A stretch of 64,000 nt of DNA from Candidatus Bathyarchaeota archaeon (GTDB taxonomy: Archaea > Thermoproteota > Bathyarchaeia > Bathyarchaeales > Bathycorpusculaceae): assembly GCA_963715865.1 (NCBI GenBank), contig OY970280.1, positions 1,662,486 through 1,726,485 of the forward strand, written 5' to 3'. The position numbers and the translations under genes were made by a program. Shown here one piece after another: positions 17,594 to 34,416 of the stretch (its first letter is position 1; the number at the start of each line of letters is the position of its first letter). A model generated the notes under the pieces. It saw only the letters and a program-made list of their open reading frames with translations, had not been told where the DNA came from and did not search any database.

Positions 17594-18951
17594 TTATGAA
17601 TTATAATTACTTATCCCTATAGTTTGGGACTTATTATCCATATTTTTGAAGCTTCCGAAGCGTTTAGGCTTCCTGTAGAAATGCATCGTAATTCCGTTGA
17701 ATGTAGCTTCATCATATTTTGTCCAGCCAGCCTTTCCTAAAGCACGAATCTCTTCAACTGTTGTTACAACGGTTTCCTCATAATCTTCCTCTTTGAACTC
17801 GATAGTATGCACATATTTCTGCGTGCTCTTCCACGACTTATGCCTCAGCAATCTTGCGATAACAACAGCATTCCCATTCGAATAGTACGCTATCATAGAG
17901 CCGCCCCAATGACGGAACGATTTAAAACTGATCTGTAGCAATGCAGGATTCTGGAATTTTGCGGCAGCCTTTACGACGAAGCGCTGCAAGGCATACATAA
18001 GCAGTCCGATAGGTCATTGGAAAAATCCGTTTGTTTTCCCTAGGCAAAGCATTCAACATGCAGGTCAAACGCATCGACAACTCGTATTTACCAGGGTAAT
18101 GGAACTTCACTGGATGATTAATACTGAACACATTATCCTTGAGGTCAATCCATTCAGCATCAAGAATCTCTGACGGATCAGCAAAAGTCTCTTTAAGGCA
18201 CAGCAGAAAAGTAGCCATACGCTTACTCGCAGCACTAATAAGCAAATCAAGGTCTTTCTCATCAGGCACAATGATAGTAGCTTCCCTCTGACGATACAGC
18301 GGACGCTGCCAAACAATCCCCTCCATCTGACAAAACGCATCATAAGCACACACCGCCAGCATTTTCATACTGTCACTCCAAGGCTCACCATTCTTCTTTT
18401 TCTGCTTAGCAATTACCATCTTCACATTTTCAGAGTCCAACAGGTCAGCGCCATCACCGACAAGATGCGTCAGAATATCAGGGTACGTTATATCTTCATC
18501 AAAACCATTACGCTCCAAGTACGCCATGAATTTTGTAATCAAGCCACGCACAGCTTCAGGTAACAGGTCCAGATGCTTCAGTTTTCTTCTTGTCTCCCGC
18601 AACAGTCTTTAATTCTGCTGCAGAGGTCAAATTTTTCGCTCCCAAAGCGCATATTTGGCGTTTAGAAGCTAAGGCACTGGACGTATTTAATGACCTTTCA
18701 GAACTTTCTTGTAACGGTGGTGACCCTTTAAGGGTCGGTCTCTCGCTAAAACGGAATCCGCAATCCCTGCAAAGCCAACGCTGAACACTAGATTTATCAC
18801 TCCTATAACGCAGGCCATCACGATAAACCTTCGTCACCTTAGGACTGCAACTGGGGCATAGGGGGCTGGCGCCATCACTAGCCAACTTGCCCAAACCAAC
18901 ACTGCCAAATACACGCTCTTGAGCAAGACCAACCATTCCCTCCCCAGCCAT
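17594..18951 (-). CDS. Tyrosine integrase with N-terminal IS1-like zinc ribbon, interrupted by two apparent +1 frameshifts (~18575 and ~17970)
   Basis: Three consecutive ORFs join as CPSC...QRWLCRDCGFRFS, core, then FKSFRHWGGS...LLRHKSWKSTQKY (H-x-x-R-like box, H, catalytic Y). Confidence 0.85.
17603..17616 (+). repeat. attL core ATAATTACTTATCC
   Basis: Identical to 57423-57436; lies inside the last codons of the integrase ORF. Confidence 0.75.
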
Positions 18952-19112
18952 CTTAACCCTCCGTAAATACGCGACCGTTCTCTTCAGCCAAATCCATCAA
19001 TTCTTTGCGTTTAGCAGCTTCCTTAAGGCGTCTATCACATGGTCCACAATAATTAACAAACCGAGAAACGACGTCACCGCATTCTCGGCAGTGATGATGC
19101 TCAGGGACGCCT

Positions 19113-19763
19113 TCAGCCAACAGTTTCACCTAACTCGCCTTTTGGACCTACAGAAGAATCCACGGTGACGGCGGCGCCTTCAGCGGCAGCTACTTCTTGA
19201 CCATCATAGGTGAAGCTGACAACTTCGAAAGTTCCAAACGAGCCCTTATGCTGAGGCCTATAATCCAGCAAACCCATCCGGACACCCGCATCTTCCAAAA
19301 TTTCTTTCAGCGTAGCCTCGATGCCTTCAGGCAGCCACTTAACATTATAGACAAGCCTAAACTTTGCACTCCATTGCAATAGTTTCGCTCTGCCTTTAAG
19401 AACCCGCTGCGACTGAATCACAACCGCCCGCTCATCAACCACGTACTGATCCGTACCCAAAGGAATCTTCTCAGGCTCCACACGCATCGTACCAGCAAGC
19501 AAACTCGAAAGCGAAACCCTATGAACCCTGTACTGCTTAGCCGTATTGATAAGCATGCTCTGCACGCATTCCTGAGGAATGTAAAGCTGGTTTTTGCCGT
19601 TGATCACTGCCATGTAAGCGCTGTTCTTTGCATCGTTCTCTGTACTATAGTTCTGCGTCTTCATTTTACTTTTACTTTTCAAACTTTCCGGATTCAACCG
19701 GTTCATTAGCAAGGGCGTTAAGCCCTTAATTTCAACATCTATTTTTTTAAAGTTTTGACTCAT
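19113..19763 (-). CDS. Virus-encoded RAMP/Cas7-like protein, candidate effector of the adjacent repeat array
   Basis: N-terminal IKGLTPLLM, YIPQECVQSML, WSAKFRL and glycine-rich C-terminal AGVRMGLLDYRPQHKGSFGTFEV, the pattern of RAMP/Cas7-group folds; no other cas genes nearby. Confidence 0.7.
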   Translation of the reverse strand: MSQNFKKIDVEIKGLTPLLMNRLNPESLKSKSKMKTQNYSTENDAKNSAYMAVINGKNQLYIPQECVQSMLINTAKQYRVHRVSLSSLLAGTMRVEPEKIPLGTDQYVVDERAVVIQSQRVLKGRAKLLQWSAKFRLVYNVKWLPEGIEATLKEILEDAGVRMGLLDYRPQHKGSFGTFEVVSFTYDGQEVAAAEGAAVTVDSSVGPKGELGETVG

Positions 19764-19768
19764 TTTTG

Positions 19769-20795
19769 TAACCTCACGTTACCATACCTGAGAGCACTGT
19801 AGCTAACGGCGCCCCGCCTTCCCTCACTAAACCAAAATAGCGGCTTACCATGCCTCACAATACATCGCATCACCAAGCCAGGCATCACTGAACTCAACCT
19901 AACTGGACACCGCAAAACATGACCTAACCGCGATGATACCAAGGAATACCACGCATTACGCGACAGGACAGTACCAAGCCAAACTTGACCCCGCCTTAAT
20001 AACGCCAAAGAACACTTCGCCTTGCTGTACCTCACCACTGCTAACCACAATGAAAGCAAAGATTGCAGCAACCGTGCCAAACCGCAACTCACAAAACCCC
20101 GCTTGACATTGCCAAACCTCAATAAAACCATGCCAAGCCTTGCATAACCGTACTTCACAGGACCAAACTTCGCCACGCCGTAGAGTGCCTCGCGACTCCA
20201 AGCCACGCAACGCCGTAATAACGCCAAACCATGCAAAACCATACCGTGCAGTACACCAACCCGCTCCACGATACCAAACAGGGCCTCTCCAAACCACGAT
20301 AACACTTTACCACACAAAACCAAGCCCCGCACCACAGATCCCCACGCAACGCAACAGGACCTCGCTAAGCCACAATAGCACCTAACCGTAGAGAACAAAG
20401 CACCACTTGACCCAACAGAACCGGACTCCACTCCGCTACACCATAATAAAAGCTTGGCTTGCCTTGCTTCACCCAACCGGACCGTTCCCTGCCATAATGA
20501 AAGCTTAGAGAAACTATCCTCGCAAAGCCGTACCTTACGATACCTAACCGGACAGGACAGAATAGTGCCATGCAATACTAAACCTCGCAACGCCTCAATA
20601 ATAGCAAACCTAGCAAACCTTACTTTACTCAACCTAGCAGTACAGGGCCTCACAAGACCTAGAAACACAAGACCAGACCTAAGAATACACTGCCGGGCAC
20701 CACTACACACCACAGGACCATACCTGACATCAATAGCGCCACACCTTACCTTAGAGGACCGGGCAACACCGCATCTTACCCCACGACACTTGACC
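19769..20795 (-). ncRNA. Array of ~178 pentamers (NGY-NN) in ~13 blocks split by GYTATT-like spacers; candidate guide-RNA array
   Basis: 5-nt periodicity seen directly (e.g. GGT-CA AGT-GT CGT-GG GGT-AA GAT-GC GGT-GT); separators GCTATTGA, GCTTTCATTAT, GTTATCGT, GTTATTAC, GTTATTAA, GCTATTTT; sits between a stop codon and the RAMP ATG. Confidence 0.8.
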
Positions 20796-21548
20796 CTAAA
20801 CATGAAAACGCAACCTCTCAAAATCCAAATGCGCCCGATTAACCAACTCTTTAATGACAGGATCATCCAGCGGAAAACGCCCCGACTCCGCCAGACTACA
20901 AAACAGCACCAAAGCGTTCTTCAGCTCCACAAGCTCACGGCCACTCAAACCAGGCTGAACCTTCCCATTCTTGGAATCCACATGAAACCGCTTGCCGCAT
21001 GGCGCCGTCAAAGTCACAATAGGCGCAGCAGACTCACGGTAAATCTCAGCAGCCGGAACATGCACAAGCGCCACGATATCTTTCACGTCAAATTTGAACT
21101 TTTTAAGCCGAGCAATGTTATCCTTAAGCTCCACGTCGCTGAAACCCTTGCCATGGCCACTATTAAGCCTCACCGCCTCAGCAAACAACTCAGCCTCACT
21201 AGAAAACGGCAACTCAGAACATTCCGCATACTCAACCTTGCGAAGCTTCCGAGAACTAAACCGATGAACACCATCAACAAGAATCTTCTGACCCTTGAAA
21301 ACGCCAACCTTCAAAGTTGGAAAAACACAACCCGCATCCAAAGCCCTGGCATAATTTTCAACAACCCTCTGATCAATCTCCTTACGCGGATAAAGACTCC
21401 AATCAAAAACCAGATCAGCAAGCTTCTCAATACGAACTGGCGCCCTATCCCAATCCTTAAACGCAAAACCAGCAGCTGGCTTAACCTCAACGCTCTTTTG
21501 CGGAGCAGGCGGCATATAAACAACTTTACCAGCAACAGGAGACTTCAA
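20796..21548 (-). CDS. ParB/Srx N-terminal-domain protein
   Basis: LYPRKEID, ILVDGVHRF, AVRLNSGHG. Confidence 0.8.
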   Translation of the reverse strand: MKSPVAGKVVYMPPAPQKSVEVKPAAGFAFKDWDRAPVRIEKLADLVFDWSLYPRKEIDQRVVENYARALDAGCVFPTLKVGVFKGQKILVDGVHRFSSRKLRKVEYAECSELPFSSEAELFAEAVRLNSGHGKGFSDVELKDNIARLKKFKFDVKDIVALVHVPAAEIYRESAAPIVTLTAPCGKRFHVDSKNGKVQPGLSGRELVELKNALVLFCSLAESGRFPLDDPVIKELVNRAHLDFERLRFHV

Positions 21549-21757
21549 CTAGACGCCTCCAGCTTTGGCTTTTTCAACGGTATAAAAACAACCGGGTGCT
21601 TATCCAACCGACTAAAAATACACCTGTAACCCTCAGCTTCAAGGGCAGTCTTCCAAGCAGCATCGAACTCTGGCTTCTGAATAACTAGGCACTCTCCATA
21701 CGGCGTCACATCTTTAGGCGGACCAAAACGCGACTTAAGCTCATCAACCGAAACCAT
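21545..21757 (-). CDS. Viral hypothetical protein
   Basis: Overlapping stop/start with the ParB-like gene, operon strand. Confidence 0.55.
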   Translation of the reverse strand: MVSVDELKSRFGPPKDVTPYGECLVIQKPEFDAAWKTALEAEGYRCIFSRLDKHPVVFIPLKKPKLEASS

Positions 21758-21933
21758 CTAAGCCGGAACCTCCAATGAGCCAAAAAATAAATCATGCCTC
21801 TTTTTTTTGAGAAGTTTAACTGTGTTCCTTAATGCTTTGTTGTCTTTGTGAAGCTGTGATATCAAGTTGCAGTTATCTTTGATGCTACTATTGATAATTG
21901 CCAAGTCTTTGCTGATTTGCTGCAATTCCTCAG

Positions 21934-22296
21934 TCAAACAGAAACCTCCAAAGGTTTTTTCGCAAATAAGACTTCATTCGGCATGTAGAGGCCAGCCGTT
22001 GCAGCAACAACCTTAGGCACCCCATCCTCATAATAGGAACTGCACGCGCTTTCGTTTACGCGGCGATCCCACCAACGCTTCTCATGAACCCTGTAAGGCC
22101 AACGCCTACAATCACGCAGCACAGCAATCCTGCTGCAAACCTCCAAGTAAATCTGCCTTAAACTAACCGGCTGCGAAGGCATACCCATCTTGCTCAGGAT
22201 ATCGCTTTTCTGCCTGTGCAAACTAAAGATCACTTCACGAATCAACTGCCTGAGAATCCGCAAGCTCCCGGCTTTCAGCAGGCCTACCCTGAGCAC
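21934..22296 (-). CDS. Viral hypothetical protein (possible winged helix)
   Basis: ORF on operon strand; SLRQIYLEV...RRVNE pattern. Confidence 0.45.
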   Translation of the reverse strand: MLRVGLLKAGSLRILRQLIREVIFSLHRQKSDILSKMGMPSQPVSLRQIYLEVCSRIAVLRDCRRWPYRVHEKRWWDRRVNESACSSYYEDGVPKVVAATAGLYMPNEVLFAKKPLEVSV

Positions 22297-22326
22297 GCCA
22301 ACCAGCCGCCTTATAGGTTTGCTCGC

Positions 22327-22557
22327 TCATTTCTCAGGTCCCTCTATGATTTTGTCTAGTTTCTTCTGAGCGTAAGCTTCAATCCTGACAGTAACATTAT
22401 GCCCTAACGGGTACTCCTGGTACAGTGCGGAACTCTCGCTCTTAATAGACAACTTCATTTTCGGGTCACTGCATTCCAGCGTAACCTTGAACACTGGCAA
22501 TTCAGCGGCGTTCTGGCTTTTCGTATGACTGCGTACAATCATGTCATATTCAGTCAA
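22327..22557 (-). CDS. Viral hypothetical protein
   Basis: Coupled to the upstream ORF. Confidence 0.6.
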   Translation of the reverse strand: MTEYDMIVRSHTKSQNAAELPVFKVTLECSDPKMKLSIKSESSALYQEYPLGHNVTVRIEAYAQKKLDKIIEGPEK

Positions 22558-23410
22558 GCTTCTTCACCTCTGTTTTTCTCGGTTTATTTTGTAAGCGATA
22601 GAACTCTCTGATTTTTTCAAAGATTACATTACGCAACTTGGCATCGACAGCATCGCGCTCAGGCTTCCACTTGGCATCGACAGCATCGAGCTCAGCGTTC
22701 CACTTGGCATAGACAGCATCGCGCTCAGGCTTCCACTTGGCATCGACAGCATCGCGCTCAGGCTTCCACTTGGCATCGACAGCATCGCGCTCAGGCTTCC
22801 ACTTGGCATAGACAGCATCGCGCTCAGCGTTCCACTTGGCATAGACAGCATCGCGCTCAGGCTTCCACTTGGCATCGACAGCATCGAGCTCAGCGTTCCA
22901 CTTGGCATAGACAGCATCGCGCTCAGCGTTCCACTTGGCATAGACAGCATCGCGCTCAGGCTTCCACTTGGCATAGACAGCATCGAGCTCAGCGTTCCAC
23001 TTGGCATAGACAGCATCGAGCTCAGGCTTCCACTTGGCATCGACAGCATCGAGCTCAGCGTTCCACTTGGCATAGACAGCATCGAGTTCAGCGTAATATC
23101 TCAACAAAAGCTCTTTTGAAATGCCGTTAGGATCTTGATTCTTTAGCAACCGCACAGATCGACAAACACATTTCTTGTTCTCATCACTCCAAGCCTCAAT
23201 TCCATAAGCCTCAGCGAAAAACACTTGACAATCAGAGTTAAGCCAGTCCCGTGGGTCCATCGTTAAATGAAAACCCCGACTGCACATCGACAAATTGCCT
23301 TTCACAATATATTTCTTGCCAAGCTTCCAGGTCTGATGACCACCGTTGTAGCTCTGCATGTTCCGCAGGACTTTGAAAAGAATCACAGGTTTTTCTTTTT
23401 TATCAGTCAT
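22550..23410 (-). CDS. Viral protein with N-terminal C..GFH domain and ~14 x 11-aa helical repeats
   Basis: GNLSMCSRGFHL domain followed by repeats DAV(Y/D)AKW(NA/KP)E(L/R). Confidence 0.75.
   Translation of the reverse strand: MTDKKEKPVILFKVLRNMQSYNGGHQTWKLGKKYIVKGNLSMCSRGFHLTMDPRDWLNSDCQVFFAEAYGIEAWSDENKKCVCRSVRLLKNQDPNGISKELLLRYYAELDAVYAKWNAELDAVDAKWKPELDAVYAKWNAELDAVYAKWKPERDAVYAKWNAERDAVYAKWNAELDAVDAKWKPERDAVYAKWNAERDAVYAKWKPERDAVDAKWKPERDAVDAKWKPERDAVYAKWNAELDAVDAKWKPERDAVDAKLRNVIFEKIREFYRLQNKPRKTEVKKLD
22637..23093. repeat. 33-bp tandem repeat, ~14 copies, coding
   Basis: Unit cttggcat(c/a)gacagcatcg(c/a)gctcag(gc/cg)ttcca seen directly. Confidence 0.95.
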
Positions 23411-23646
23411 GCTGGCGGCGCCTCCAAATCAGGAACCCGTTTATCAATCAAACTCTTAGTCGCAGCACTGGCCTGCATTTCAACTTCACGACGCCACGCC
23501 TCCAACTCCTGCAGCCGACCCTCATGATCAGCCCTGCCACGCTTCAACTCAGCAACTTCACCGCACAAACGCTCAAAACAACCGCCCAAACCTTCCAGCG
23601 CACGCTTAAACGCAACAGCAACATGTTTCGCAAATTTTTCGCTCAA
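23407..23646 (-). CDS. Coiled-coil viral protein
   Basis: Heptad-like VAELKRGRADHEGRLQELE; coupled to neighbours. Confidence 0.55.
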   Translation of the reverse strand: MSEKFAKHVAVAFKRALEGLGGCFERLCGEVAELKRGRADHEGRLQELEAWRREVEMQASAATKSLIDKRVPDLEAPPA

Positions 23647-23948
23647 GAAACAGCCTCCTTTTTGTCCTTGCTGAAGGAATCCACAAGCTTAGGCTTACAT
23701 TTGCCGAACGGAACATCCACGCACCGGACACCTGGATTATCAGCGCAAAAGAGCAGTTGCGGATCCAACTTTTCACAAACCACGCCTACAGCCTCCTAAC
23801 AGGCCTACGCTTACGCCAAAGCCAAGGAGGGCTACCGTTCTTGTTTAGGAAGCAATTTGAGGGGGAGAGAAGAGCAATAAAACCAGCTCGAGGCTTAAAA
23901 CTAAACTTCCCAAAAGCAAATCCTTCAAAAAGCCTAATCCCCAAGGTA

Positions 23949-24089
23949 TTAGCCCTCCTGCTTGCAACCTTGCAAAAGTAGATGCTCTATTACCTCAGGA
24001 ATCGTACGATTCGTATTTTCCGCGATTTTTTCAAGTTTACCATAAATAGCATCTTTTACGGTTATGCTTCTATAGCCTTCTCGTGGCAT
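23949..24089 (-). CDS. Ribbon-helix-helix-like regulator (46 aa, absent from ORF track)
   Basis: Manual translation MPREGYRSITVKDAIYGKLEKIAENTNRTIPEVIEHLLLQGCKQEG. Confidence 0.7.
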   Translation of the reverse strand: MPREGYRSITVKDAIYGKLEKIAENTNRTIPEVIEHLLLQGCKQEG

Positions 24090-24207
24090 TCACCTATCTC
24101 CTTGAATGTACTCTATTGTACCGTACCATATATAAGATTTGGGTACATTCTGGTACATGAAATAACGTTTATATAGAATGTACGGTACATTCTGTTTTGA
24201 CACAATC
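24090..24207. promoter_or_regulatory. Divergent promoter/operator region with GTAC-core repeats
   Basis: Perfect palindrome GAATGTAC-G-GTACATTC (24176-24192), half-sites at 24104 and 24143, TATA-like TATATAAG (~24129) and TTTATATAG (~24168). Confidence 0.7.
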
Positions 24208-24393
24208 ATGCCAAGAATAGGATACAAAAGTATAACCGTACCTAACGATGTTTACGAGTTTTTCAAAAATGAATGGTTAAAAAACAAAGATCAACTACGC
24301 CGAAGAGGAATCCGTAGTTTCTCTGGGTATGTTACTTCTCGTCTTAATCAATTAATGGAAGAAGAAGAGAAGAAACGTAATGAAGAAACGTAA
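24208..24393 (+). CDS. Ribbon-helix-helix-like regulator (repressor candidate)
   Basis: MPRIGYKSITVPNDVYEFF, paralogous N-terminus to 23949-24089; one of few plus-strand proviral genes. Confidence 0.7.
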   Translation: MPRIGYKSITVPNDVYEFFKNEWLKNKDQLRRRGIRSFSGYVTSRLNQLMEEEEKKRNEET

Positions 24394-24655
24394 TCACTAA
24401 CACTCACATTAAGGTCTTCAGCTCTCTGTGCTAATTTACGGTAAACTTCTCTTGAAACAAATAATTTCTTCAAACAGACTCTTAGCGCAAAAATACATCA
24501 AAACCCTATATAAAACCAATCCCAAAACAACCATCCAGCACAGTGGAGGGTGCACTGAAAGTAAAATTACCACGTACATTGTAGGTTTCGGAATCCAATC
24601 CAAGCCACTTTAAAAGCACCTTCGGAATCAATTCCAAACTACGTATATTCAAGCC

Positions 24656-25513
24656 CTAAGATGTACGTGGTAAACTTGGCGGAAAAAGCAACGTTTGAAT
24701 TTGCTTACCGTACTTCACAGCCATGGCTGTCTTGATTTCTTGATATTCAGCAGGATCCAAGGAAGTTCCGCAGCACGGACAAATCGGCGTACCCTCCGGA
24801 ATAGTTTCGGGTACCATAATTTTTTTAGGTTTAGGCTCTGTAGACGATGTAACCGATGTAGACGATGTGGGAATTCCCTCTTTTTTGCTGTCGGATATCT
24901 CACTACTGGAAGTAACCCTATGCACTTCCTCTTCTCGCGCTGTCTCATACTTTGATTTTAGCGCCTCCGAGATTTTTCCCGATGTCTCACTCTTAAGTTC
25001 TTGAGGCATGTACTTGTAAATTGTTTTTTTACTAATGCCTGTGACTTTAGCGATTTCTTCAGGCTTCAACCCGGCCTTAACAAGAAAAGTTACGCGCTGC
25101 GCAATCTCTTCAGGCGAAACTTTGCGCCTGTTAAAATTAGCCGCCAACATAGCTAACTGAAGCTTAACAGGCGTATCAATTTGAGGCCTCACTTCAGTAT
25201 GCCACTTCGGGTTTTCCCCCAGCCTATGGAAACCATCAATAACATTCCCATGCGCATCCATCAACACCGGATACAGTTCGCCAAGCCCTTCACCTGATGT
25301 GGCAAGACTGTAAGGCGCTTCCTCATCCGCTTTCGGCTCTTCTACCTCTTCTACCGCCTCTACCTTCTCTACTTCCTCTACCTCAGTTTCTTCAAGTGCC
25401 TGTTGAGTCAGGGGCGCAGGAACAGGCCCATAATGACTATGCGACCAATGAAGTCTATACTCAAGCCCTGAATCAAAAACCCTATGGCATTTGGGACAAG
25501 CAACCTTACCCAT
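24656..25513 (-). CDS. C2H2 zinc finger + ParB-like domain + HTH protein
   Basis: CPKC...HWSHSH; YPVLMDAHGNVIDGFHR; PEEIAKVTGISKKTIYKY. Confidence 0.75.
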   Translation of the reverse strand: MGKVACPKCHRVFDSGLEYRLHWSHSHYGPVPAPLTQQALEETEVEEVEKVEAVEEVEEPKADEEAPYSLATSGEGLGELYPVLMDAHGNVIDGFHRLGENPKWHTEVRPQIDTPVKLQLAMLAANFNRRKVSPEEIAQRVTFLVKAGLKPEEIAKVTGISKKTIYKYMPQELKSETSGKISEALKSKYETAREEEVHRVTSSSEISDSKKEGIPTSSTSVTSSTEPKPKKIMVPETIPEGTPICPCCGTSLDPAEYQEIKTAMAVKYGKQIQTLLFPPSLPRTS

Positions 25514-25738
25514 CTACAACGCCTCCGCAATTATCGCAAGAGCCTTAACGTTCCGGTCATAATGACCCTCAAAAGCTTCTGTCTTGCCCTGAAAGACCCG
25601 ATTAAGCTTTTCGCGCAACGGATCATAAGGCGGCAGCCGAACCACATTCCGATCATTGATGTTGTAAAACTTCTTGCCATTCCAACTGAACTCCAATAGC
25701 CACGGCGCCACCTTGCTCTTACGCAAAAACATCTTCAT
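25514..25738 (-). CDS. Viral hypothetical protein
   Basis: Abuts the downstream ORF. Confidence 0.5.
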   Translation of the reverse strand: MKMFLRKSKVAPWLLEFSWNGKKFYNINDRNVVRLPPYDPLREKLNRVFQGKTEAFEGHYDRNVKALAIIAEAL

Positions 25739-26117
25739 AGCCCAGCCTCCCCACTATACCTTACCCAAGAGCAACCAGAACATTTCCTTCCAGGACGCCT
25801 AGCTAAAGTCGGCGGATTCTGCGGACAATAAGTAGCGGTGCAGATTGGCCGCTGCTTCACCATAAACCCAACCCCTTAACACCCTTCAAGCTTGCCAGAG
25901 TTTTTTCCGTTCGATCTAAGACTGCGCTTCGGTTAACTGAATCAATCACAGAACCCTTGTAGATCTGTACCGTGTAAAAGTTTGCGCGGTAATCGATTTT
26001 TGCTTGAGTGTTCATTTTGCTTATTCCTCACGTAACTGTAATAGTCACAGTAAGATATAAACGTGACGGTGACAGTTACATTTAAATATTAAGCAACACA
26101 TGATACCTTGAGGAAAA

Positions 26118-26297
26118 ATGAGACAATACATACTAACACCGCAAGAGAGAGAAATCATCAAAAAATACCTAGAAACAGGCGAAAAGCATGTCTGGTTCAG
26201 AATGCTACTATCCAGGTGTCGCCACATGGAAATCGTGCAAGAAGACCTGCAGTTAATTGAGCAATTCCTCAAAAAAACAGAAGGCGGAAAACCGTGA
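26118..26297 (+). CDS. Small hypothetical protein (59 aa)
   Basis: Manual ORF MRQYILTPQEREIIKKYLETGEKHVWFRMLLSRCRH... Confidence 0.55.
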   Translation: MRQYILTPQEREIIKKYLETGEKHVWFRMLLSRCRHMEIVQEDLQLIEQFLKKTEGGKP

Positions 26298-26446
26298 CGT
26301 TAAAAACAATCAATGTTTATTTGCGAATAATCGCTTTTATGGCGTTCGATATGCTTATGTTCCCAGATTTAACGGTTAAATTGTTTTGGCGTGTACTTCA
26401 CAATGATATTCCATAGAAAAAAAAGCAGGAAATAGGCGAATAAAAA

Positions 26447-26716
26447 ATGAGTGAAAAAGAAGGCCAACTAAAACAAAAAATAGACACATTAGATAAAACG
26501 TTGCATGAAAGTGTTAAGTTTAGCCCACCAGCAGCTGTAATAACAAATTTTGAAAAAGTACGCGTTAACTTGGAAGATCTGAAAAATAGTTTGGATGAGG
26601 CAAAAAAAGATGCTATTAAATCCACATCTTATGACATCAACGCCGACATAATTATTTGGGTTGCAATTGTTGAAGCATGGGAAAAATGGTTCGAGAAATG
26701 GTTTGGCAAGTCCTAA
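26447..26716 (+). CDS. Hypothetical protein in AT-rich insert
   Basis: ORF track. Confidence 0.45.
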   Translation: MSEKEGQLKQKIDTLDKTLHESVKFSPPAAVITNFEKVRVNLEDLKNSLDEAKKDAIKSTSYDINADIIIWVAIVEAWEKWFEKWFGKS

Positions 26717-26804
26717 GATGTACGTAGTAAATAGCCTCCGCTGAAATCTTAATTTAAATGCCGAAAAAAAAGAGCAAAACGTGCTCTCCAAGCGAAAAAA
26801 AACA

Positions 26805-27221
26805 TTAACTCACTGTTGCTGTTGACTGCGGCGCCGTAGTCTGCTGCTGAGTCTCCTCAAGCTTTTGCACTGCACCTGCAACAGCATTTAACGCTGTTTG
26901 CTGCGGGTTGCTAACGTCAACTGGGCCGACGGCTGCTGCAATGGGCGCAACAACTTCTCGGATGCTGTTAAGATACTTGCTTGCTACCGTGCCGACAAGA
27001 GTTGACGCGAAAGGCGAAACGTAAATGCTGCTAAGCGGAGTCCCAGAGACGCTGAATCCAAGCGCCATAGCAAAACTGATTGCGACAGTGCGCAGAAACT
27101 TGGTTTCGCTGAAGGCTTCACCGCTGAGTTTCCAAGCAATCAACGCGTAAACGATTGACGTTACGACTGCAGCGAGTAAGCTGTAATAAACTGAAATATC
27201 CATGTTCATTCTCACCTCCAT
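26805..27221 (-). CDS. Membrane protein, holin-like candidate
   Basis: Two to three hydrophobic segments; at the distal end of the late operon. Confidence 0.45.
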   Translation of the reverse strand: MEVRMNMDISVYYSLLAAVVTSIVYALIAWKLSGEAFSETKFLRTVAISFAMALGFSVSGTPLSSIYVSPFASTLVGTVASKYLNSIREVVAPIAAAVGPVDVSNPQQTALNAVAGAVQKLEETQQQTTAPQSTATVS

Positions 27222-27313
27222 TAAACAAGCAATTACCGTGACTAGGAAAAACCAAGACTATGGTACCACGTACATCCTAAGCCCTAATGTACGTAGTAAA
27301 AAAAAACTTTAGA

Positions 27314-27583
27314 TTATTCCCTTTTTGTTTTTTCTTCCGCTTTAAAATTAGCTTTAGCCACTGGAAGCGGCACATCCTTGTTAGCTTCCTTCACCACTTG
27401 ACCTTTCAACTTCTGAATTTCCTGATCTTTCTCAGCGAGCATGGCATTCGTCACTTGAATGTAAGCCCCGAACGATTTAGCCAAGTCACTGTACGGCTTA
27501 AGCGCTATACTATAGTTCGTGTTAAACTCCGCCAGGATAGACTGGATTTGCTTTTCATGTTGAGATTCTGGTTGCTTCATCAT
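27314..27583 (-). CDS. Coiled-coil viral protein
   Basis: ORF track, late operon strand. Confidence 0.55.
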   Translation of the reverse strand: MMKQPESQHEKQIQSILAEFNTNYSIALKPYSDLAKSFGAYIQVTNAMLAEKDQEIQKLKGQVVKEANKDVPLPVAKANFKAEEKTKRE

Positions 27584-27635
27584 CTAGTTAATCCCTCCTT
27601 TACTTTTCTTTAAAACTTCAATTTGTAACCGCAAA

Positions 27636-30600
27636 TCATAGTGCGTATTCTATCCATGAATCTATCCATGAATAAGACGTATTTTCGCTCCAATTATTAT
27701 GCAACGAATACGTCGATCCATTCGGAACTATGGCTGTTATGCAAGAAGACATGTAATTGTAGAGGGAATTACAAATTCTACCAGCCTTAACCCCATCTAC
27801 ATAAAGCGTTGTCCAAATCGCGTATGATGAACCAGCGGGAGCAGTAATTATGGTTATAACTATAACTTTATCATAACCAGTATTATTGGTATAGTCAGTA
27901 CCAAGGGCTCTTGATGCTGTTACATCAAGCACGTAAGTTGATAGATGGCTCGAATTGTATGAATTATTATATCCAATAGCAGTTAAGTTTCCTGCAAGCG
28001 TCAAGTTTCCCGAACTATCTAAACTCCACAACGTAGAGTTTAATAGAAGTTCTTGAGATGTAACCTTAAATGGATTGGTATCAACAGACGTTATATACGC
28101 CGAAGGAACCTCCGACCAATGGTGCCCATCAAGCAAATCAGCGTTCAAATTGGGGCACATGGTTGTCGATATGACGCTTAACGGTGCGGTTCCAATCGCT
28201 ATGTTGATGCCGACGGCGTTATCGGTTGAAAACGCTTTCGCCCATAAATTTTGCTCAACAATCAAACCGCCATCTGAAGGCGTTTGAACGCGCAAACTGT
28301 CCTTATTCGCTTGTGTCCCCGTTGTTGGACGGTAAAAAGCCACGTTCGTGTCTAAAAAGTTAAAGTCAGACTGAACCGTAATATAAGTGTGGTCTAAACC
28401 TAAAAGTTGATTGCAGAAAAGTTGGTCGCTGTCAACAAACTTGAGATAATGCCCTGAGCTGCCGAACCCAAATGTTTTGTCTGAACCGTCAGGAACCAAG
28501 TAGCGGATTCCGCTTGTGATGCCCACGGTGAAACTGGTTGTCGCGCCGTTGCCGTTGCCCCTGATCGTCAATGTGAGAGCGTCAAGGTCATTCAAGTACA
28601 GGTTCGCAGGTAACTCAGTGTCAGCGCGAAGCAGAAAAAGCGTATCGTAATCAGCGCTTAAAACATCAAAGTATTTTTCTGCCCACGCACCGCTTATGTA
28701 ACACCACAAGCTTTTGCGGTCAGTGCGATAGAAATAGTCGTACGGGTTCATTCCCGACGTCGGGTTACTAGTTCCACTCGGGTAACTGCCAAGCGGATCA
28801 CTCATGCCAATGATCGTGCCCGTTAAATCAAACAGGGGCGGGCAATACCTGCCCTGGAAACCCTCACCCATCAAGATTGCGCCGCCGCCCGTGTGCTTGT
28901 ACGGGTCACTGCTTGTACCCAGAAAACCGAAAGTCTGAGTGTCTTTCTCTATGAATAAAGCTTGGTTAATGCAAAACATCGGATCAGAAAGCACAGTTGA
29001 ATGGTCTAACGGGCTGATTACGGACGCAAAAATGTCAATATAGTTCCCTGAAGGATTAGCAACGTTAGTCGGAACACCATCAACAAGTACGTCGCCGTTA
29101 TCCTTCAAAACCAACAAGTTATCCAAAGTAAGCTGATTAATGATTTCAAGGTTAGCAAGCTGACCTGGAAAACCGCCTGCGCCGCCCCCACTGCTCCCTC
29201 CGCCGCTGCCCTGCGATTGCTTCGCCAAAACACGCATCAAATAATCCATCATCACCGGCTCATCACTCAACAACAACTCGCTTGTCCAGTACACGTCAAT
29301 AATCGAGTGCGTAACTTCCAAAATGCGGAAATAAGCGTCAACGCCCTCATTCGCCAAAACCACGTGCTGCATGTAACCAGGAACAAAATCATAATTGCCA
29401 ACACAGCTTACCTTCAACGTGACAACTTTGTCCTGAGTGTACGCAAGCTTCCCAGCAGCCGCGAGAGCGCAAGCCTCATCACTTGCCAACGTAGTGTCAG
29501 TGACAGGATCAGCCCAGCGAACACCATACTTAGCGAGACGCGCAGCATCAGTGTCCATGGCGGTGCCGACACAGGGCATACCACTAAAATACAAATCATC
29601 AAGCAAGAAGTAAAATGTATCGTTGGAACTACCAGGCGTACCTTGAACGTAGAAGCATACGTCTGAAATATTATTCCAGTCTGGGCTTCCAACTTCAACC
29701 CATTTGCCGCTGGGGTTAGTTATAGCGTCATAAACTTGGTCTGGACCGACGGGAATAGTTGTTTCTTCTTTCCAAGTGTCATTAGGATTTGTTAATTCTA
29801 CATAGAAATAGTTTGAAGCATCAGGCGCATACAAGCGGATTTGCTCATGCTGCATCGATGCTAACCCACCTATGTGATATTTCCAATAGAAATGCACATT
29901 TGTAGCGGCTGATTTACCGACAAAAACTAAGGTTGAAGGTAAGGCGCGGTGAAATTGAATTGTTCGAATACCTGATATGCCAGCCGAATCTGCTTCAAGC
30001 GAGTCACTACCGATTTTTTTATCACTTGAATTCGCAATTACTTGAACACCTAAATCTAGTACCCAACCAGTGCCATATGTCCAATCATCACCTGTCGCAG
30101 GCACCATCTTCAACGGAACAGTCTTGTTAACGCCGCCTTCAACAACAACCTGCGTTGACGCGCCGTACACGATGTACGCGTTCCGCACACGCAGCGCGTC
30201 GTCCTCTTTAATATAAACTTGGAAAACGCCTGCCAAGTCAACCGTGCTGTTACGGCTGCCACGCGCAAACACCTGCAACACGCCAGGAGGAGAAACGTAA
30301 CCGTCAAAACCAACTGCGCCCCCGCTTGTTTCCGCAGCAGGCAAAATAGCTTTAAGAACTTTATCAGGCGAAGCATCATCAAAAGTCTCACTGAAAAGCG
30401 ACGCAATAGCATTTTCCACATCCACGCCTGCAGCGCTCAAATAATTACAGAGTGCAACGGCTTCCTGAATGATTGTTTTGCCGTTTTCAGCCACATAGTT
30501 TTTGGTAAGCGTAGCAGGCGGGGCTTGCGCTTCCTCGCCGTAATCCATACATTCCACAGGAATATAGAATTCCTGCGTATCCGCGTTGCCCGACGATGTG

Positions 30601-31268
30601 GGCTTAGTGATTTTGCCGCCGAACACTTTCTTAGGCGATAATCCAGTTCGGGCAACCCATAAGAGTACATGGTCAAACTCGCAGACTTTCCCCGTGTACT
30701 GCCCAGCAATGTTAGGCAGTTTAAACGTGCAACCGCCAACGCCACGACTCCAAATACTCTGAATCAACTGCAACTCTTCAACCGCATCAAAAGTGGTTAC
30801 GCCGTCGCATGGAATAAGAAACGTGCCTGTGATTGCACAGTAATCGAAAACTACGTTTTGCCCTGCAGAGCCAGAAGCAACTAGGTCAATGTCTGTGATG
30901 GTGCTTGAAGGCGGACTGGAAAGGTGCGTGTACCAGTAGTAAAGGTCAACTTGCTGCAGGCCTGTTGCTGTGCCCGAGGTTACAAGCCGCCAACTTGAGT
31001 CGCCTTGAAGCATCAAGTAAACTTGCCAAGTTGCAGTACGACTGTTAACCCTGAAAACAAGAGCCAAAGGGTTAACAACTGGAATGCTAAGGGCCTTGCT
31101 GAAGTGCTGCAGTGTTTGCCCAGACTTAATAGTTAAAGTTGCAGCGTCACCATCCAACGTAACCTGGCCCGTAGGCGTTTGAACCCAACCTACTTCTAAG
31201 AAGTGGTCTGAGAACAGCTTTGGCGCATGAAAGACTTCAACGTACGTCAAAGCATTACCTAAACTCAT
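27636..31268 (-). CDS. Large tail hub/fibre (adhesin) protein, 1210 aa
   Basis: Follows the TMP; hub-like core, Gly-rich hinge (GSGGGSSGGGAGG) and fibre-like C-terminus (LNADLLDG, SRALGTDYTNNTG). Confidence 0.75.
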   Translation of the reverse strand: MSLGNALTYVEVFHAPKLFSDHFLEVGWVQTPTGQVTLDGDAATLTIKSGQTLQHFSKALSIPVVNPLALVFRVNSRTATWQVYLMLQGDSSWRLVTSGTATGLQQVDLYYWYTHLSSPPSSTITDIDLVASGSAGQNVVFDYCAITGTFLIPCDGVTTFDAVEELQLIQSIWSRGVGGCTFKLPNIAGQYTGKVCEFDHVLLWVARTGLSPKKVFGGKITKPTSSGNADTQEFYIPVECMDYGEEAQAPPATLTKNYVAENGKTIIQEAVALCNYLSAAGVDVENAIASLFSETFDDASPDKVLKAILPAAETSGGAVGFDGYVSPPGVLQVFARGSRNSTVDLAGVFQVYIKEDDALRVRNAYIVYGASTQVVVEGGVNKTVPLKMVPATGDDWTYGTGWVLDLGVQVIANSSDKKIGSDSLEADSAGISGIRTIQFHRALPSTLVFVGKSAATNVHFYWKYHIGGLASMQHEQIRLYAPDASNYFYVELTNPNDTWKEETTIPVGPDQVYDAITNPSGKWVEVGSPDWNNISDVCFYVQGTPGSSNDTFYFLLDDLYFSGMPCVGTAMDTDAARLAKYGVRWADPVTDTTLASDEACALAAAGKLAYTQDKVVTLKVSCVGNYDFVPGYMQHVVLANEGVDAYFRILEVTHSIIDVYWTSELLLSDEPVMMDYLMRVLAKQSQGSGGGSSGGGAGGFPGQLANLEIINQLTLDNLLVLKDNGDVLVDGVPTNVANPSGNYIDIFASVISPLDHSTVLSDPMFCINQALFIEKDTQTFGFLGTSSDPYKHTGGGAILMGEGFQGRYCPPLFDLTGTIIGMSDPLGSYPSGTSNPTSGMNPYDYFYRTDRKSLWCYISGAWAEKYFDVLSADYDTLFLLRADTELPANLYLNDLDALTLTIRGNGNGATTSFTVGITSGIRYLVPDGSDKTFGFGSSGHYLKFVDSDQLFCNQLLGLDHTYITVQSDFNFLDTNVAFYRPTTGTQANKDSLRVQTPSDGGLIVEQNLWAKAFSTDNAVGINIAIGTAPLSVISTTMCPNLNADLLDGHHWSEVPSAYITSVDTNPFKVTSQELLLNSTLWSLDSSGNLTLAGNLTAIGYNNSYNSSHLSTYVLDVTASRALGTDYTNNTGYDKVIVITIITAPAGSSYAIWTTLYVDGVKAGRICNSLYNYMSSCITAIVPNGSTYSLHNNWSENTSYSWIDSWIEYAL

Positions 31269-31360
31269 CGAATATTCACCTCAAACATAGACGTTCAGCA
31301 TCCACTCCTCGAAATAAACTTGATAAGCAACCGTTACCCATAACAAAATAGGCAGAAAAC

Positions 31361-31672: not shown

Positions 31673-31680
31673 ATCAGTAA

Positions 31681-33507: not shown

Positions 33508-33519
33508 TCTTTCACCGTC

Positions 33520-34389: not shown

Positions 34390-34416
34390 TTTTTATTTTT
34401 TGTACATTAAGTACCG

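What the first reader, a model, noticed from the sequence alone, without database searches (positions are those of the whole stretch)
19113..20795. Proviral RAMP/Cas7-like gene plus a 5-nt-periodic array: candidate RNA-guided system with gapped guides
Seen: on the minus strand 19769-20795 is ~178 pentamers of form scaffold triplet (GGY, TGY, AGY, CGY) + variable NN. AT-rich GYTATT-like separators cut it into ~13 blocks of about 8-24 pentamers. The array starts at the base after the ParB-like stop codon and ends 5 nt before the ATG of a solitary protein with RAMP/Cas7-like features (TPLLM start, Gly-rich GLLDYRP..KGSFGTF end). Known: Cas7-group RAMPs oligomerise on RNA with a fixed nucleotide step per subunit. 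Inference: each block is a processed guide, one subunit binds each pentamer, and only NN reads the target. From memory this resembles the recently reported viral GGY/NN-repeat RAMP (VIPR-type) systems, which I cannot verify here. An archaeal provirus example with a relaxed NGY scaffold would extend them.
Basis: partly seen in the sequence, partly recalled or inferred. Interest (0 to 1): 0.96.

Follow-up and report, generated by a model that had tools for sequence, protein, structure and literature searches.

The report
Viral gapped-guide array against DNA-modification genes
An archaeal provirus carries a VIPR-type system (a lone Cas7-like protein plus about 1 kb of 5-base-repeat guide RNA genes), and decoding the guides suggests they are aimed at the conserved catalytic motifs of DNA methyltransferases and related DNA-modification enzymes, a target class the two VIPR papers' main text does not mention.

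Summary
Minus strand 19764-20795 is a 5-nt-periodic array (lag-5 identity 0.43 vs 0.28 in shuffles, z=10.9), the only one in the window. It holds about 190 NGY+NN pentamers in about 14 blocks.

The adjacent 216-aa protein is a stand-alone RAMP. Its family profile hits the solved SUSP1 Vipr protein (E=2e-6), and its model matches Csm3/Cas7. VIPR systems are real (two 2026 bioRxiv preprints), so this is a member. All 83 related loci that have upstream sequence carry such an array next to the gene. All 53 with enough flank carry a ParB-like gene upstream.

New here:
- Across about 45 arrays the NN dinucleotides are conserved while scaffold positions 1 and 3 drift.
- Read by the published one-base-skip rule, NN+x are codons spelling enzyme motifs: QVGNAVPP, GGP(P/S)CQGFS, DLIITSPPY, DPFMGxGTT, GQFFTPRNV, DPCCGSGGFL, VFVDTT.EFPET.
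- Viral-contig scans found in-frame, sense-strand sites in C5, N4/N6 and N6 methyltransferase genes; a locus-set test favoured skip 1 over 0, 2, 3, and one shuffled-order scan found nothing.
- One frame through the array is stop-free, yet shows no codon-level constraint.

Expression, processing and silencing are untested.

The parts
20796..21548 (-). ParB-like gene (250 aa). Conserved upstream partner and candidate accessory (vap-like) protein.
   Evidence: PHROG phrog_1033 'ParB-like partition protein', E=3.4e-8. No Pfam hit. A homolog lies on the same strand upstream of the array in 53 of 53 related loci with at least 2 kb of upstream sequence.
19764..20795 (-). vrRNA-type guide array: about 190 pentamers (NGY scaffold + NN) in about 14 blocks, separated by short U/A-rich breaks.
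   Evidence: No Rfam family and no hammerhead ribozyme. Folding energy is no better than shuffles, z=-0.17 and -0.35.
20736..20795 (-). Guide block 0. NN+x reads Q V G N A V P P K: C5 DNA methyltransferase motif X.
   Evidence: 41 sites scoring at least 14 under skip 1, against 0-1 for skip 0, 2, 3 and shuffles. Best site matches 21/24 in a PF00145 ORF, L188.
20620..20729 (-). Block 1 (22 pentamers, probably two guides). The second half reads L L V Y L D P T Y W, a DPPY-like methyltransferase motif IV. The first half is undecoded.
   Evidence: the family consensus is yfDPPY. No natural match was found for the window's own version. Inferred.
20505..20594 (-). Guide block 3. Reads V D L I I T S P P Y: N4/N6 DNA methyltransferase motif IV.
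   Evidence: The 118 scored translate D[LF]I[IM]TSPPY, 115 of them in ORFs of at least 150 aa (median 265 aa). The same dinucleotides in shuffled order found 0 sites. Best match 30/36. ORFs are PF01555.
20449..20498 (-). Guide block 4, target undecoded.
20378..20442 (-). Guide block 5. Reads V G G P S C Q G F S T Y A: C5 DNA methyltransferase motif IV (PCQ catalytic loop).
   Evidence: The family consensus matches 26/26 bases in L206, L119 and L118. The window version matches 23/26 in L131 and L114. ORFs are PF00145.
20297..20371 (-). Guide block 6. Reads L D P C C G S G G F L V: N6 (HsdM / type IIG) methyltransferase motif I.
   Evidence: 23/30 on L339 (IDPACGSGGFLVVAL), 74 nt downstream of the block-12 site in the same locus and on the same strand. 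For the window's own version skip 0 also reaches score 16, so the match is weak. The family version matches 21/22 in L109, PF02384 + Type_ISP_C.
20221..20290 (-). Guide block 7. Reads D P F M G G G T T: N4/N6 methyltransferase motif I.
   Evidence: 17 sites (DPFMGSGTT) against 0-1 in controls. The family version matches 22/22 in L156, PF01555.
20125..20214 (-). Guide block 8. Reads V V F V D T T V E F P E T Y: probable PAPS-reductase-like (CysH/DndC/BrxP-type) motif.
   Evidence: This is the second most conserved guide in the family, present in 31 arrays. The exact core found only chance-level hits. A relaxed pattern found one site, VFVDTGCEFPETY, in a PF01507 ORF, 26/36. The sister family guide FSGGKDSTT hit 12 of 12 PP-loop ORFs; all four checked by Pfam are PF01507. 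Target class is inferred.
20002..20118 (-). Guide blocks 9-11, targets undecoded.
19936..19995 (-). Guide block 12. Reads G Q F F T P R N V: the N6 (HsdM / type IIG) methyltransferase motif that precedes motif I.
   Evidence: 10 of 10 viral-contig hits translate GQFFTPR[NK]V inside ORFs of 408-921 aa. Best match 22/24. Two of them, checked by Pfam, are PF02384 with Eco57I/MmeI/HSDR_N domains.
19764..19929 (-). Guide blocks 13-14, targets undecoded. The last pentamers overlap the vipr ribosome-binding site.
19113..19763 (-). vipr: stand-alone RAMP (Cas7-like) protein, 216 aa.
   Evidence: A profile of 25 homologs hits PDB 36pp_D 'SUSP1 Vipr protein' at E=2.3e-6 over 160 residues. AlphaFold2 pLDDT is 80. 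The Foldseek top 50 are all Csm3/Cas7/Cmr4, E about 4e-6. The best viral structure matches are 200-aa orphan RAMPs. phrog_4652, E=4e-14. 1995 50%-identity clusters match at E<=0.001.
19760..20803 (-). Stop-free reading frame through the whole array. Its ATG (20803-20801) overlaps the ParB-like stop, and its TGA (19762-19760) overlaps the vipr ATG.
   Evidence: 0 stops, against 23 and 20 in the other two frames. It is never stop-free in 2000 pentamer-order shuffles. Substitutions are flat over codon positions. The open frame recurs in 44 of 67 related arrays.
17594..54893 (-). Approximate extent of the head-tailed provirus that carries the system.
   Evidence: Integrase-like ORFs 17594-18602. 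HK97-type capsid 44114-45055, portal 48860-50254 and large terminase 50474-51766. The right border was not mapped, and the window holds no tRNA.

Best explanation
This is a VIPR-type RNA-guided DNA-recognition module of a tailed provirus. The closest genome-resolved relatives are Bathyarchaeia MAGs.

The ParB-like gene, the array and vipr lie head to tail on one strand and are probably one transcript. The array would be cut or partitioned at short U/A-rich breaks into about 14 guides of about 9-18 pentamers. One Vipr subunit would bind each pentamer, holding the NGY triplet and presenting NN. The presented dinucleotides would pair with DNA while skipping every third target base.

The guides have the same sense as the coding strand, and the skipped base falls on the codon wobble position. 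Each guide is therefore in effect a reverse-translated peptide motif. At least six, and probably eight, of the window's guides spell catalytic or SAM-binding motifs of C5, N4/N6 and N6 (HsdM / type IIG) DNA methyltransferases and of PAPS-reductase-like enzymes.

The most likely role is this. The resident provirus silences DNA-modification genes carried by superinfecting viruses and other mobile elements. Those elements lose their protection from host restriction, and synonymous mutations cannot help them escape.

What is shown here: the anatomy, the homology, the linkage, the conservation pattern, and sequence complementarity to real genes under the one-base-skip rule. What is inferred: transcription, processing, filament assembly, silencing, and whose genes are hit.
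For: Protein.
- Sequence-profile homology to the solved SUSP1 Vipr.
- The G-loop D-[W/Y]-R-P and the thumb Arg align with the residues that the structure paper shows contact G1, G2 and Y3.
- RAMP fold.

Linkage.
- Arrays abut the gene in 83 of 83 loci.
- A ParB-like gene lies upstream in 53 of 53 loci.

Code.
- In position-agnostic BLAST alignments of the window array to 60 other arrays, mismatch rates by pentamer position are 0.333, 0.103, 0.334, 0.245 and 0.148. NN against positions 1+3 gives p=2e-67, and position 3 changes are almost all C<->T.
- In-register alignments show NN strings fixed in 30-45 arrays while the triplets vary among GGT, GGC, TGT, AGC and CGT.

Targets.
- In 118 viral loci, with the selecting site masked, skip 1 gives 177 extended hits scoring at least 17. 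Skips 0, 2, 3 and shuffled guides give 1-3.
- The hits lie in frame in C5 methyltransferase ORFs at motifs I, IV, VIII and X. 176 are on the same strand as the PCQ site and 1 is on the opposite strand.
- Window guides 0, 3, 5, 7 and 12 each have 10-124 sites, against 0-2 in controls. The sites of guides 3, 5 and 12 lie mostly in loci fetched with those guides' own patterns; guides 0 and 7 are the independent tests.
- The true-order pattern found at least 120 sites and the shuffled-order pattern found 0.
- Pfam identities: PF00145, PF01555, PF02384, PF01507.

No self-target.
- None in the window or in 830 kb around related vipr genes.
- No ORF of at least 120 aa in the window carries any of these motifs.

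Published mechanism and setting.
- One protomer per repeat, the one-base skip, wobble alignment, dsDNA binding, transcriptional repression and inter-phage conflict are reported in the preprints.
- Other Bathyarchaeia viruses carry stand-alone methyltransferases and a CysH-like gene (PMC10848311).
Against: - There is no expression or processing data.
- No structured 3' tail like the SUSP1 pseudoknot is present, so guide ends and filament capping are unknown.
- Only 44% of units are strict GGY.
- Six or seven blocks remain undecoded.
- The block 8 assignment rests on motif similarity only: 26/36, and 14/24 on other PAPS-reductase genes.
- For block 6, skip 0 also reaches score 16, so the window's own version of that guide is only weakly matched.
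- The matched genes come from all kinds of viral contigs, not demonstrably from viruses of this host.
- The host's own methyltransferases could not be examined, so harmful self-targeting, or host-directed action, is not excluded.
- The stop-free frame shows that the array is under a second, unexplained constraint.
Confidence: 0.78

Rival explanations
1. The machinery is the same, but the aim is counter-defence against the host. The guides would silence the host's own modification-based immunity: type I HsdM operons, fused type IIG/ISP restriction-modification enzymes, BREX or Dnd-like PAPS-reductase genes, and GHKL-ATPase restriction enzymes. This would ease the virus's own replication or spread.
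For: - The target classes are exactly the components of such defence systems. In PADLOC, L340 scores as a type II/I MTase, L343 resembles BrxP/DndC, and the HATPase_c_3 proteins resemble type II restriction enzymes.
- N6_Mtase hits include Eco57I, MmeI, Type ISP and HSDR_N fusions, where silencing would remove nuclease and methylase together.
Against: - The system sits next to the integrase in a provirus, whose DNA is already modified by the host.
- Silencing a host methylase while its nuclease persists would be lethal to the lysogen.
- The published VIPR targets are other mobile elements.
- No host methyltransferase lies in the 26 kb of host flank to test.
Confidence: 0.17
2. The array is a protein-coding gene (the 368-aa or 347-aa ORF), and the 5-nt period is a by-product of a Cys/Gly/Arg/Val-rich repeat protein.
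For: One frame is completely free of stops. This is never reached in 2000 shuffles, and it recurs in 44 of 67 relatives. The ORF's start and stop overlap the neighbouring genes, as in translationally coupled operons.
Against: - Substitution rates are flat across the ORF's codon positions (0.226, 0.230, 0.233), whereas vipr shows 0.179, 0.121, 0.496.
- Conservation follows the pentamer phase, not the codon phase.
- The open frame is absent or short in about a third of relatives, and its relation to the vipr frame varies.
- A repeat protein would not explain in-frame NNx matches to methyltransferase genes.
Confidence: 0.03
3. The guides regulate the virus's own genes (lysogeny control), or they target RNA rather than DNA.
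For: The module lies in the operon downstream of a likely switch region. RAMP complexes of type III CRISPR target RNA.
Against: - No site in the provirus or its flanks matches any guide above chance under skips 0-3.
- The guides have the same sense as the target mRNAs (176 to 1; and all 118, 10 and 12 scan hits), so they cannot pair with them.
Confidence: 0.02

Closest known systems
VIPR systems (Vipr protein + vrRNA; bioRxiv 10.64898/2026.04.26.720920 and 10.64898/2026.04.26.720927), characterised for Escherichia phage SUSP1 and a Pseudomonas fulva prophage (type II)
   Same: - A stand-alone minimal RAMP homologous to SUSP1 Vipr, with conserved G-loop and thumb residues.
- Adjacent arrays of pentanucleotide units with a fixed G-Y core and two free bases.
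- A proviral location.
- The one-base-skip rule, with the skipped base on the codon wobble.
- No self-targets.
   Different: - The scaffold is NGY (only 44% GGY). This is the 'YNNNG' variant the preprint lists without detail.
- About 14 guides are packed end to end over 1 kb between two genes. They have 8-nt U/A-rich breaks and no structured tail, pseudoknot or ribozyme.
- The partner gene is ParB-like, which the preprint text does not mention.
- Guides are conserved across many viruses rather than hypervariable.
- Guides spell enzyme active-site motifs and are all sense-strand. The published targets are satellite or prophage genes on both strands.
- The array is kept free of stop codons in one frame.
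Class 1 CRISPR backbone proteins (Cas7/Csm3/Cmr4) with crRNA
   Same: The RRM/RAMP fold, glycine-rich loop and thumb. Oligomerisation along a guide with a fixed nucleotide step and periodic unpaired bases.
   Different: There is no CRISPR repeat-spacer array and no Cas5, Cas6, large or small subunits or adaptation genes. The step is 5 nt with 3 bases withheld, against 6 nt with 1 withheld. Guides are hard-wired, not acquired.
Virus-borne mini-CRISPR arrays and type IV-B systems of archaeal viruses (for example Bathyarchaeia 'Fuxiviridae' and 'Chiyouviridae', PMC10848311)
   Same: RNA-guided tools carried by archaeal viruses and proposed to act in conflicts between viruses.
   Different: Those use contiguous spacers against specific rival genomes. 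Here the guides are degenerate at the wobble base and address protein motifs shared by whole enzyme families.
Protein anti-restriction factors of phages (Ocr, ArdA, DarA/B) and phage orphan methyltransferases
   Same: They belong to the same arena: the struggle around restriction-modification and DNA modification.
   Different: Those act on proteins or modify DNA. Here the proposed action is RNA-guided transcriptional silencing of the modification genes themselves.

Membership tests
VIPR system | A Vipr protein: a minimal stand-alone RAMP homologous to characterised Vipr proteins. | tested here: met
   The profile hits PDB 36pp_D 'SUSP1 Vipr protein' at E=2.3e-6, covering residues 27-187 of the 211 profile positions. 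The single sequence gives E=0.022. The fold matches Csm3/Cas7 with probability 1.0 and TM about 0.5.
VIPR system | RNA-contact residues: a G-loop Asp, aromatic and Arg (SUSP1 D177, W178, R179) and a thumb Arg (R138). | tested here: met
   The alignment pairs D167-Y168-R169-P170 with D177-W178-R179-P180, and R125 with R138. D167, R169, P170 and R125 are invariant in 25 homologs. The N-terminal His17 equivalent was not alignable.
VIPR system | An adjacent vrRNA made of tandem pentanucleotide units, GGY/NN or a related consensus. | tested here: met
   190 units, 84% NGY and 44% GGY, with free NN. This is the preprint's alternative 'YNNNG' consensus. Such arrays are present in 83 of 83 related loci.
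VIPR system | Strict GGY scaffold, as in the characterised type II systems. | tested here: not met
   Position 1 is G 52%, T 29%, A 14%, C 5%. It is the fastest-changing position between homologous guides.
VIPR system | Non-contiguous code: NN pairs with the target and one target base is skipped (xNN). | tested here: met
   This was tested computationally only. Skip 1 gives 177 strong hits, against 1-3 for skips 0, 2, 3 and shuffles. The shuffled-order pattern found 0 sites against at least 120.
VIPR system | The skipped base falls on the codon wobble position of coding targets. | tested here: met
   All strong hits translate in the NNx frame to the expected motif inside long ORFs.
VIPR system | A structured, invariant 3' tail (pseudoknot) capping each vrRNA. 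| tested here: not met
   Blocks are separated by only about 8 nt. Folding is no better than shuffles, z=-0.17 and -0.35. There is no Rfam match. The preprint notes other architectures (staggered, ribozyme-interspersed) that could not be compared, because the figures are not held.
VIPR system | Viral or proviral genomic setting. | tested here: met
   Terminase, portal, HK97-type capsid and integrase are in the same minus-strand block. Relatives occur on IMG/VR contigs.
VIPR system | An accessory vap gene (vap1-6). | tested here: inconclusive
   A ParB-like gene is syntenic in 53 of 53 loci. No vap reference sequences are available, and 'ParB' does not occur in the preprint text.
VIPR system | vrRNAs are expressed, co-purify with Vipr, bind dsDNA and repress transcription. 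| not testable with these tools
   No RNA runs hold the locus. This needs experiments.
VIPR system | Assignment to one of the seven VIPR types. | not testable with these tools
   The classification data (data S4, figures S16-S17) are not held.
CRISPR-Cas (class 1) | A repeat-spacer array plus Cas5, Cas6, large subunit or adaptation genes. | tested here: not met
   No direct-repeat array was found. The neighbours are ParB-like, zinc-ribbon and integrase genes. PADLOC gives no hit for the protein.

The most novel reading that the evidence does not exclude
A widespread clade of archaeal viruses uses hard-wired, codon-aware guide RNAs as an innate 'motif sensor'. Because it reads only codon positions 1-2, one guide recognises the active-site motif of a whole enzyme family, whatever the synonymous codon usage. 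The array as a whole shuts down DNA-modification genes (C5, N4/N6 and N6 methyltransferases, PAPS-reductase-like enzymes, and GHKL ATPases in relatives) in rival mobile elements or in host defence islands. The conserved ParB-like partner may act as the silencing effector. The guide array is itself traversed by ribosomes, as a stop-free frame coupled to both flanking genes.
Probability: 0.5. Interest if true: 0.92.

Novelty: new variant of a known kind. Interest (0 to 1): 0.82.

Why it matters
VIPR was described only in 2026, and its natural targets were reported as specific rival phages, satellites and prophage regulators.

This clade suggests a different strategy. Its guides are conserved across dozens of divergent viruses, and they encode protein motifs rather than particular genomes. 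That would make RNA-guided recognition work like a pattern-recognition receptor for an enzyme class. It would also link RNA-guided silencing directly to the restriction-modification arms race.

The finding yields concrete experiments: defined 13-18-unit guides, predicted target sites, and a candidate partner protein. It offers design rules for guides that tolerate synonymous variation. It also raises a puzzle about why a non-coding guide array is kept open for translation.

Tried and rejected
- Tandem Repeats Finder does not see the array.
- Pfam and PADLOC give nothing for the protein.
- No RNA-seq or near-identical DNA runs exist. Only 11% of sampled words occur, in peat and wetland metagenomes.
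- Self-targeting, or targeting of close relatives, was rejected. Full scans of the window and seed-and-extend over 830 kb of vipr-flanking loci give chance-level scores for skips 0-3.
- A scan with the exact core of guide 8 returned 6 chance-like sites. A relaxed version gave a single PAPS-reductase site, so that guide's target is only inferred.
- A three-base (NNN) code using pentamer position 1 was rejected, because position 1 is the least conserved position between homologous guides.
- A generic junction analysis across all arrays was uninformative, because the periodic segments included flanking coding sequence.
- Supplementary tables of the VIPR preprint are not held, so the type assignment and any overlap with their locus list could not be checked.
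- Guides 1a, 4, 9, 11, 13 and 14 could not be decoded.
Full report

Yes. On the minus strand, 20795-19764 shows identity peaks at every multiple of 5 nt: 0.43 at lag 5 against about 0.25 at other lags. Lag-5 identity is 10.9 standard deviations above mononucleotide shuffles. A sliding periodicity score is high (0.11-0.21) only in this stretch of the 64-kb window.

A phase-tracking parse gives 190 in-frame pentamers:
- Position 2 is G in 87%.
- Position 3 is a pyrimidine in 96%.
- Position 1 is G 52%, T 29%, A 14%, C 5%.
- Positions 4-5 are near-random.

The parse model presupposes NGY, so the percentages lean that way. The autocorrelation is model-free.

Short breaks of the form G(G/C)NNY-TAT-TNN shift the phase by 3 nt and divide the array into about 14 useful blocks of 9-22 units. 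The array starts one base after the ParB-like stop (TAG 20798-20796). It ends at the ribosome-binding site of the next gene, whose ATG is at 19763-19761.

**2. What is the protein?**

The 216-aa product of 19113-19763(-) has no Pfam or PADLOC hit. It does match phrog_4652, a family of unknown function, at E=4e-14.

It has 251 close relatives in the 90%-clustered database. A profile of 25 of them finds 1995 clusters at 50% identity. The same profile hits one solved structure, 36pp chain D, 'SUSP1 Vipr protein', at E=2.3e-6 over 160 residues.

In that alignment the window's D167-Y168-R169-P170 and R125 pair with SUSP1 D177-W178-R179-P180 and R138. The structure preprint shows these residues contact G1, G2 and Y3 of each repeat. 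They are invariant or conservatively replaced in the family.

The AlphaFold2 model (pLDDT 80) matches Csm3, Cas7 and Cmr4 backbone subunits in all top 50 PDB hits (E about 4e-6, TM about 0.5). It also matches about 200-aa orphan viral RAMPs in BFVD.

**3. Is the recalled system real?**

Yes. Two 2026 bioRxiv preprints describe VIPR:
- a stand-alone RAMP (Vipr) and vrRNAs of 9-16 YNNGG units;
- one protomer per unit;
- GGY sequestered and NN presented;
- dsDNA targets read as NN-x-NN, with x usually the codon wobble base;
- transcriptional repression, and use in conflicts between phages.

The preprint already reports archaeal viruses and variant units (NNNGG, YNNNG, NNNNG), and arrays without the type II tail.

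**4. Linkage and context.**

I collected 88 loci encoding relatives of 54-94% identity, from Bathyarchaeia MAGs, IMG/VR and JGI metagenomes.
- Every locus with upstream sequence (83 of 83) has a 5-nt-periodic segment of 0.3-1.5 kb ending at the gene start. The more distant ones have arrays on both sides.
- A ParB-like gene precedes the array on the same strand in 53 of 53 loci with enough flank. In the window it is 20796-21548, PHROG ParB-like at E=3e-8.

The module sits beside the integrase of a head-tailed provirus, which also carries a terminase, portal and HK97-type capsid. It lies downstream of a likely switch region.

**5. Which positions carry information?**

BLAST alignments of the window array to 60 other arrays are blind to pentamer phase. 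They give these mismatch rates for positions 1-5: 0.333, 0.103, 0.334, 0.245, 0.148.
- NN is significantly more conserved than positions 1+3 (p=2e-67).
- Position 3 changes are nearly all C<->T.
- Position 1 changes are mostly among G, T and A.

In-register alignments show NN strings fixed in 30-45 different arrays while the triplet drifts among GGT, GGC, TGT, TGC, AGT and CGT. So G2 and Y3 are scaffold and position 1 is loosely constrained scaffold. NN is the conserved message, which argues against an NNN code.

**6. What do the guides say?**

No guide matches the window or 830 kb of related loci above chance under any skip rule. Reading each NN plus a skipped base as a codon, however, the family's most common guides spell enzyme motifs.

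| Block | Coordinates | Peptide read | Motif |
|---|---|---|---|
| 0 | 20795-20736 | QVGNAVPPK | C5 MTase motif X |
| 5 | 20442-20378 | VGGPSCQGFSTYA | C5 MTase motif IV (family consensus IIGGPPCQGFS) |
| 3 | 20594-20505 | VDLIITSPPY | N4/N6 MTase motif IV |
| 7 | 20290-20221 | DPFMGGGTT | N4/N6 MTase motif I |
| 12 | 19995-19936 | GQFFTPRNV | N6 (HsdM / type IIG) MTase |
| 6 | 20371-20297 | LDPCCGSGGFLV | N6 (HsdM / type IIG) MTase |
| 8 | 20214-20125 | VVFVDTTVEFPETY | PAPS-reductase-like |
| 1, second half | 20679-20620 | LLVYLDPTYW | DPPY-like |

**7. Tests against real sequences.**

- **Family consensus of block 5.** Three of them match all 26 consensus NN bases. The window's own version matches 23/26.
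- **All family guides on those 118 loci, with the selecting site masked.**
  - Skip 1 gives 3070 seeds and 177 hits scoring at least 17; skips 0, 2, 3 and dinucleotide-order shuffles give about 1250 seeds and 1-3 such hits.
  - The hits lie in frame in 350-450-aa ORFs at C5 MTase motif I (VLDLFCGAGGL), motif IV, motif VIII (DYGVPQNR) and motif X.
  - 176 are on the same strand as the PCQ site and 1 is on the other.
- **Block 3 core.** It found at least 120 sites. All 118 scored translate D[LF]I[IM]TSPPY, and 115 lie in ORFs of at least 150 aa (median 265 aa). The same nine dinucleotides in shuffled order found none.
- **Block 12 core.** It found 10 sites, all GQFFTPR[NK]V in ORFs of 408-921 aa.
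- **Block 6.** It matches 23/30 on L339, 74 nt downstream of the block 12 site in the same locus and on the same strand. Skip 0 also reaches score 16 for this guide, so it is the weakest of the decoded matches.
- **Family guide FSGGKDSTT.** It found 12 of 12 PP-loop ORFs.
- **Gene identities.** Pfam confirms PF00145, PF01555, PF02384 (with Eco57I, MmeI, Type ISP or HSDR_N) and PF01507+DUF3440. For a guide present only in relatives (NAYDADAT) it gives PF13589 GHKL ATPases. PADLOC relates these to R-M, BrxP/DndC and restriction-enzyme models.

Whole-guide NN matches for the window's guides reach 88% (block 0), 83% (block 3), 88% (block 5), 92% (block 12), 77% (block 6) and 71% (block 7). The preprint's threshold was 80%.

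Block 8 is weaker. Its exact core gave only chance-like hits. A relaxed pattern gave one PF01507 gene, VFVDTGCEFPETY, at 26/36.

Six or seven blocks are undecoded.

**8. Consequences for mechanism.**

All matches have the guide in the same sense as the mRNA. The guide would therefore pair with the template DNA strand and cannot pair with the transcript. This fits DNA recognition.

The skipped base is the wobble base, so a guide tolerates all third-position synonymous changes. It still distinguishes codon families such as TCN and AGY.

Guides are shared by many divergent viruses. This repertoire therefore looks hard-wired and motif-directed, rather than tailored to one rival.

The window, meaning the provirus plus 26 kb of host flank, has no ORF with these motifs. 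In 770 kb of related loci only two such ORFs occur.

Published Bathyarchaeia viruses of other families carry stand-alone methyltransferases and a CysH-like gene (PMC10848311). Plausible rival targets therefore exist in this host class.

I consider silencing of modification genes of incoming mobile elements the most likely role. Silencing of host modification-based defence is the main rival. The data here cannot separate the two.

**9. An unexplained second layer.**

One reading frame crosses the whole array without a stop: 0 stops against 23 and 20 in the other frames. This is never reached in 2000 shuffles of pentamer order, whose best frame has a mean of 11 and a minimum of 3 stops.

The frame can start at ATG 20803-20801, which overlaps the ParB-like stop. 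It ends at TGA 19762-19760, which overlaps the vipr ATG.

In 44 of 67 related arrays the open stretch exceeds all 100 shuffles. In 11 loci the stop again overlaps the vipr start as ATGA, and in about 20 more it lies 5-59 nt upstream of that start.

Yet substitutions are flat over the frame's codon positions (0.226, 0.230, 0.233). The vipr gene shows the usual 0.179, 0.121, 0.496. There is thus selection against stops but not for a peptide.

My tentative reading is that ribosome transit is needed. It could couple ParB-like, array and vipr translation, or protect a 1-kb untranslated stretch from termination or decay.

The array RNA has no excess secondary structure and no Rfam family.

**10. Verdict.**

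- The system belongs to a kind described in 2026, so the bare identification is not new.
- Neither VIPR preprint's main text mentions methyltransferases; I checked one by term search and read only parts of the other. A literature search found nothing comparable.
- Within that literature, five features of this clade appear unreported: guides that spell DNA-modification enzyme motifs, strict sense orientation, conservation of NN with a drifting scaffold, the invariable ParB-like partner, and the stop-free array.
- Their supplementary data could not be checked.
- Everything about expression and activity is inferred.

Noticed in passing
window 19760-20866 (-); also L001-L088: One frame through the non-coding guide array is completely free of stop codons and is bracketed by overlapping stop/start codons of the flanking genes. 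It shows no codon-position pattern of substitution. It recurs in about two thirds of related arrays.
   Followed up: yes
window 23950-24260: A divergent regulatory region with several GTAC-containing inverted or direct repeats and TATA-like boxes lies upstream of a small ribbon-helix-helix-like gene. It is probably the switch and promoter of the minus-strand operon that includes the VIPR module.
   Followed up: partly
window 22550-23410 (-): A 286-aa DUF7666 protein has about a dozen tandem 11-residue repeats (AELDAVYAKWN / PERDAVDAKWK). A homolog is present in L001 and L003.
   Followed up: no
window 17594-18602 (-); L001, L002, L006: The integrase-like gene appears as two overlapping ORFs in different frames. 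The same split is seen in three related loci, so it is either two genes or a conserved frameshift.
   Followed up: no
proteins P0036, P0079, P0083, P0088, P0106 (alignment A1): Some Vipr homologs end in an AT-hook-like KRRGRPPK tail. The window's protein has an acidic, Gly/Ala-rich tail instead.
   Followed up: no
L075, L078, L079, L083, L084, L087: More distant homologs (57-65% identity) carry 5-nt-periodic arrays on both sides of vipr.
   Followed up: no
family guides in L002, L020, L049 and others; targets in L144, L171: Some relatives carry a guide reading NAYDADAT. It matches the N-box of GHKL (HATPase_c_3) ATPases that resemble type II restriction enzymes in PADLOC. Other widely shared guides (for example I-Y-V-T-[RS]-L-[FL]-T-[CW]-A-[CW]-[KN]-[FL], in 29 arrays) remain undecoded.
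   Followed up: partly
L071 and L020: Only two ORFs with methyltransferase or PP-loop motifs occur in 770 kb around related vipr genes. The NPPF site in L071 matches some family guide at 86% of NN.
   Followed up: no
window 18953-19129 (-): A 58-aa zinc-ribbon ORF overlaps the end of vipr. It is not conserved in the related loci examined.
   Followed up: partly
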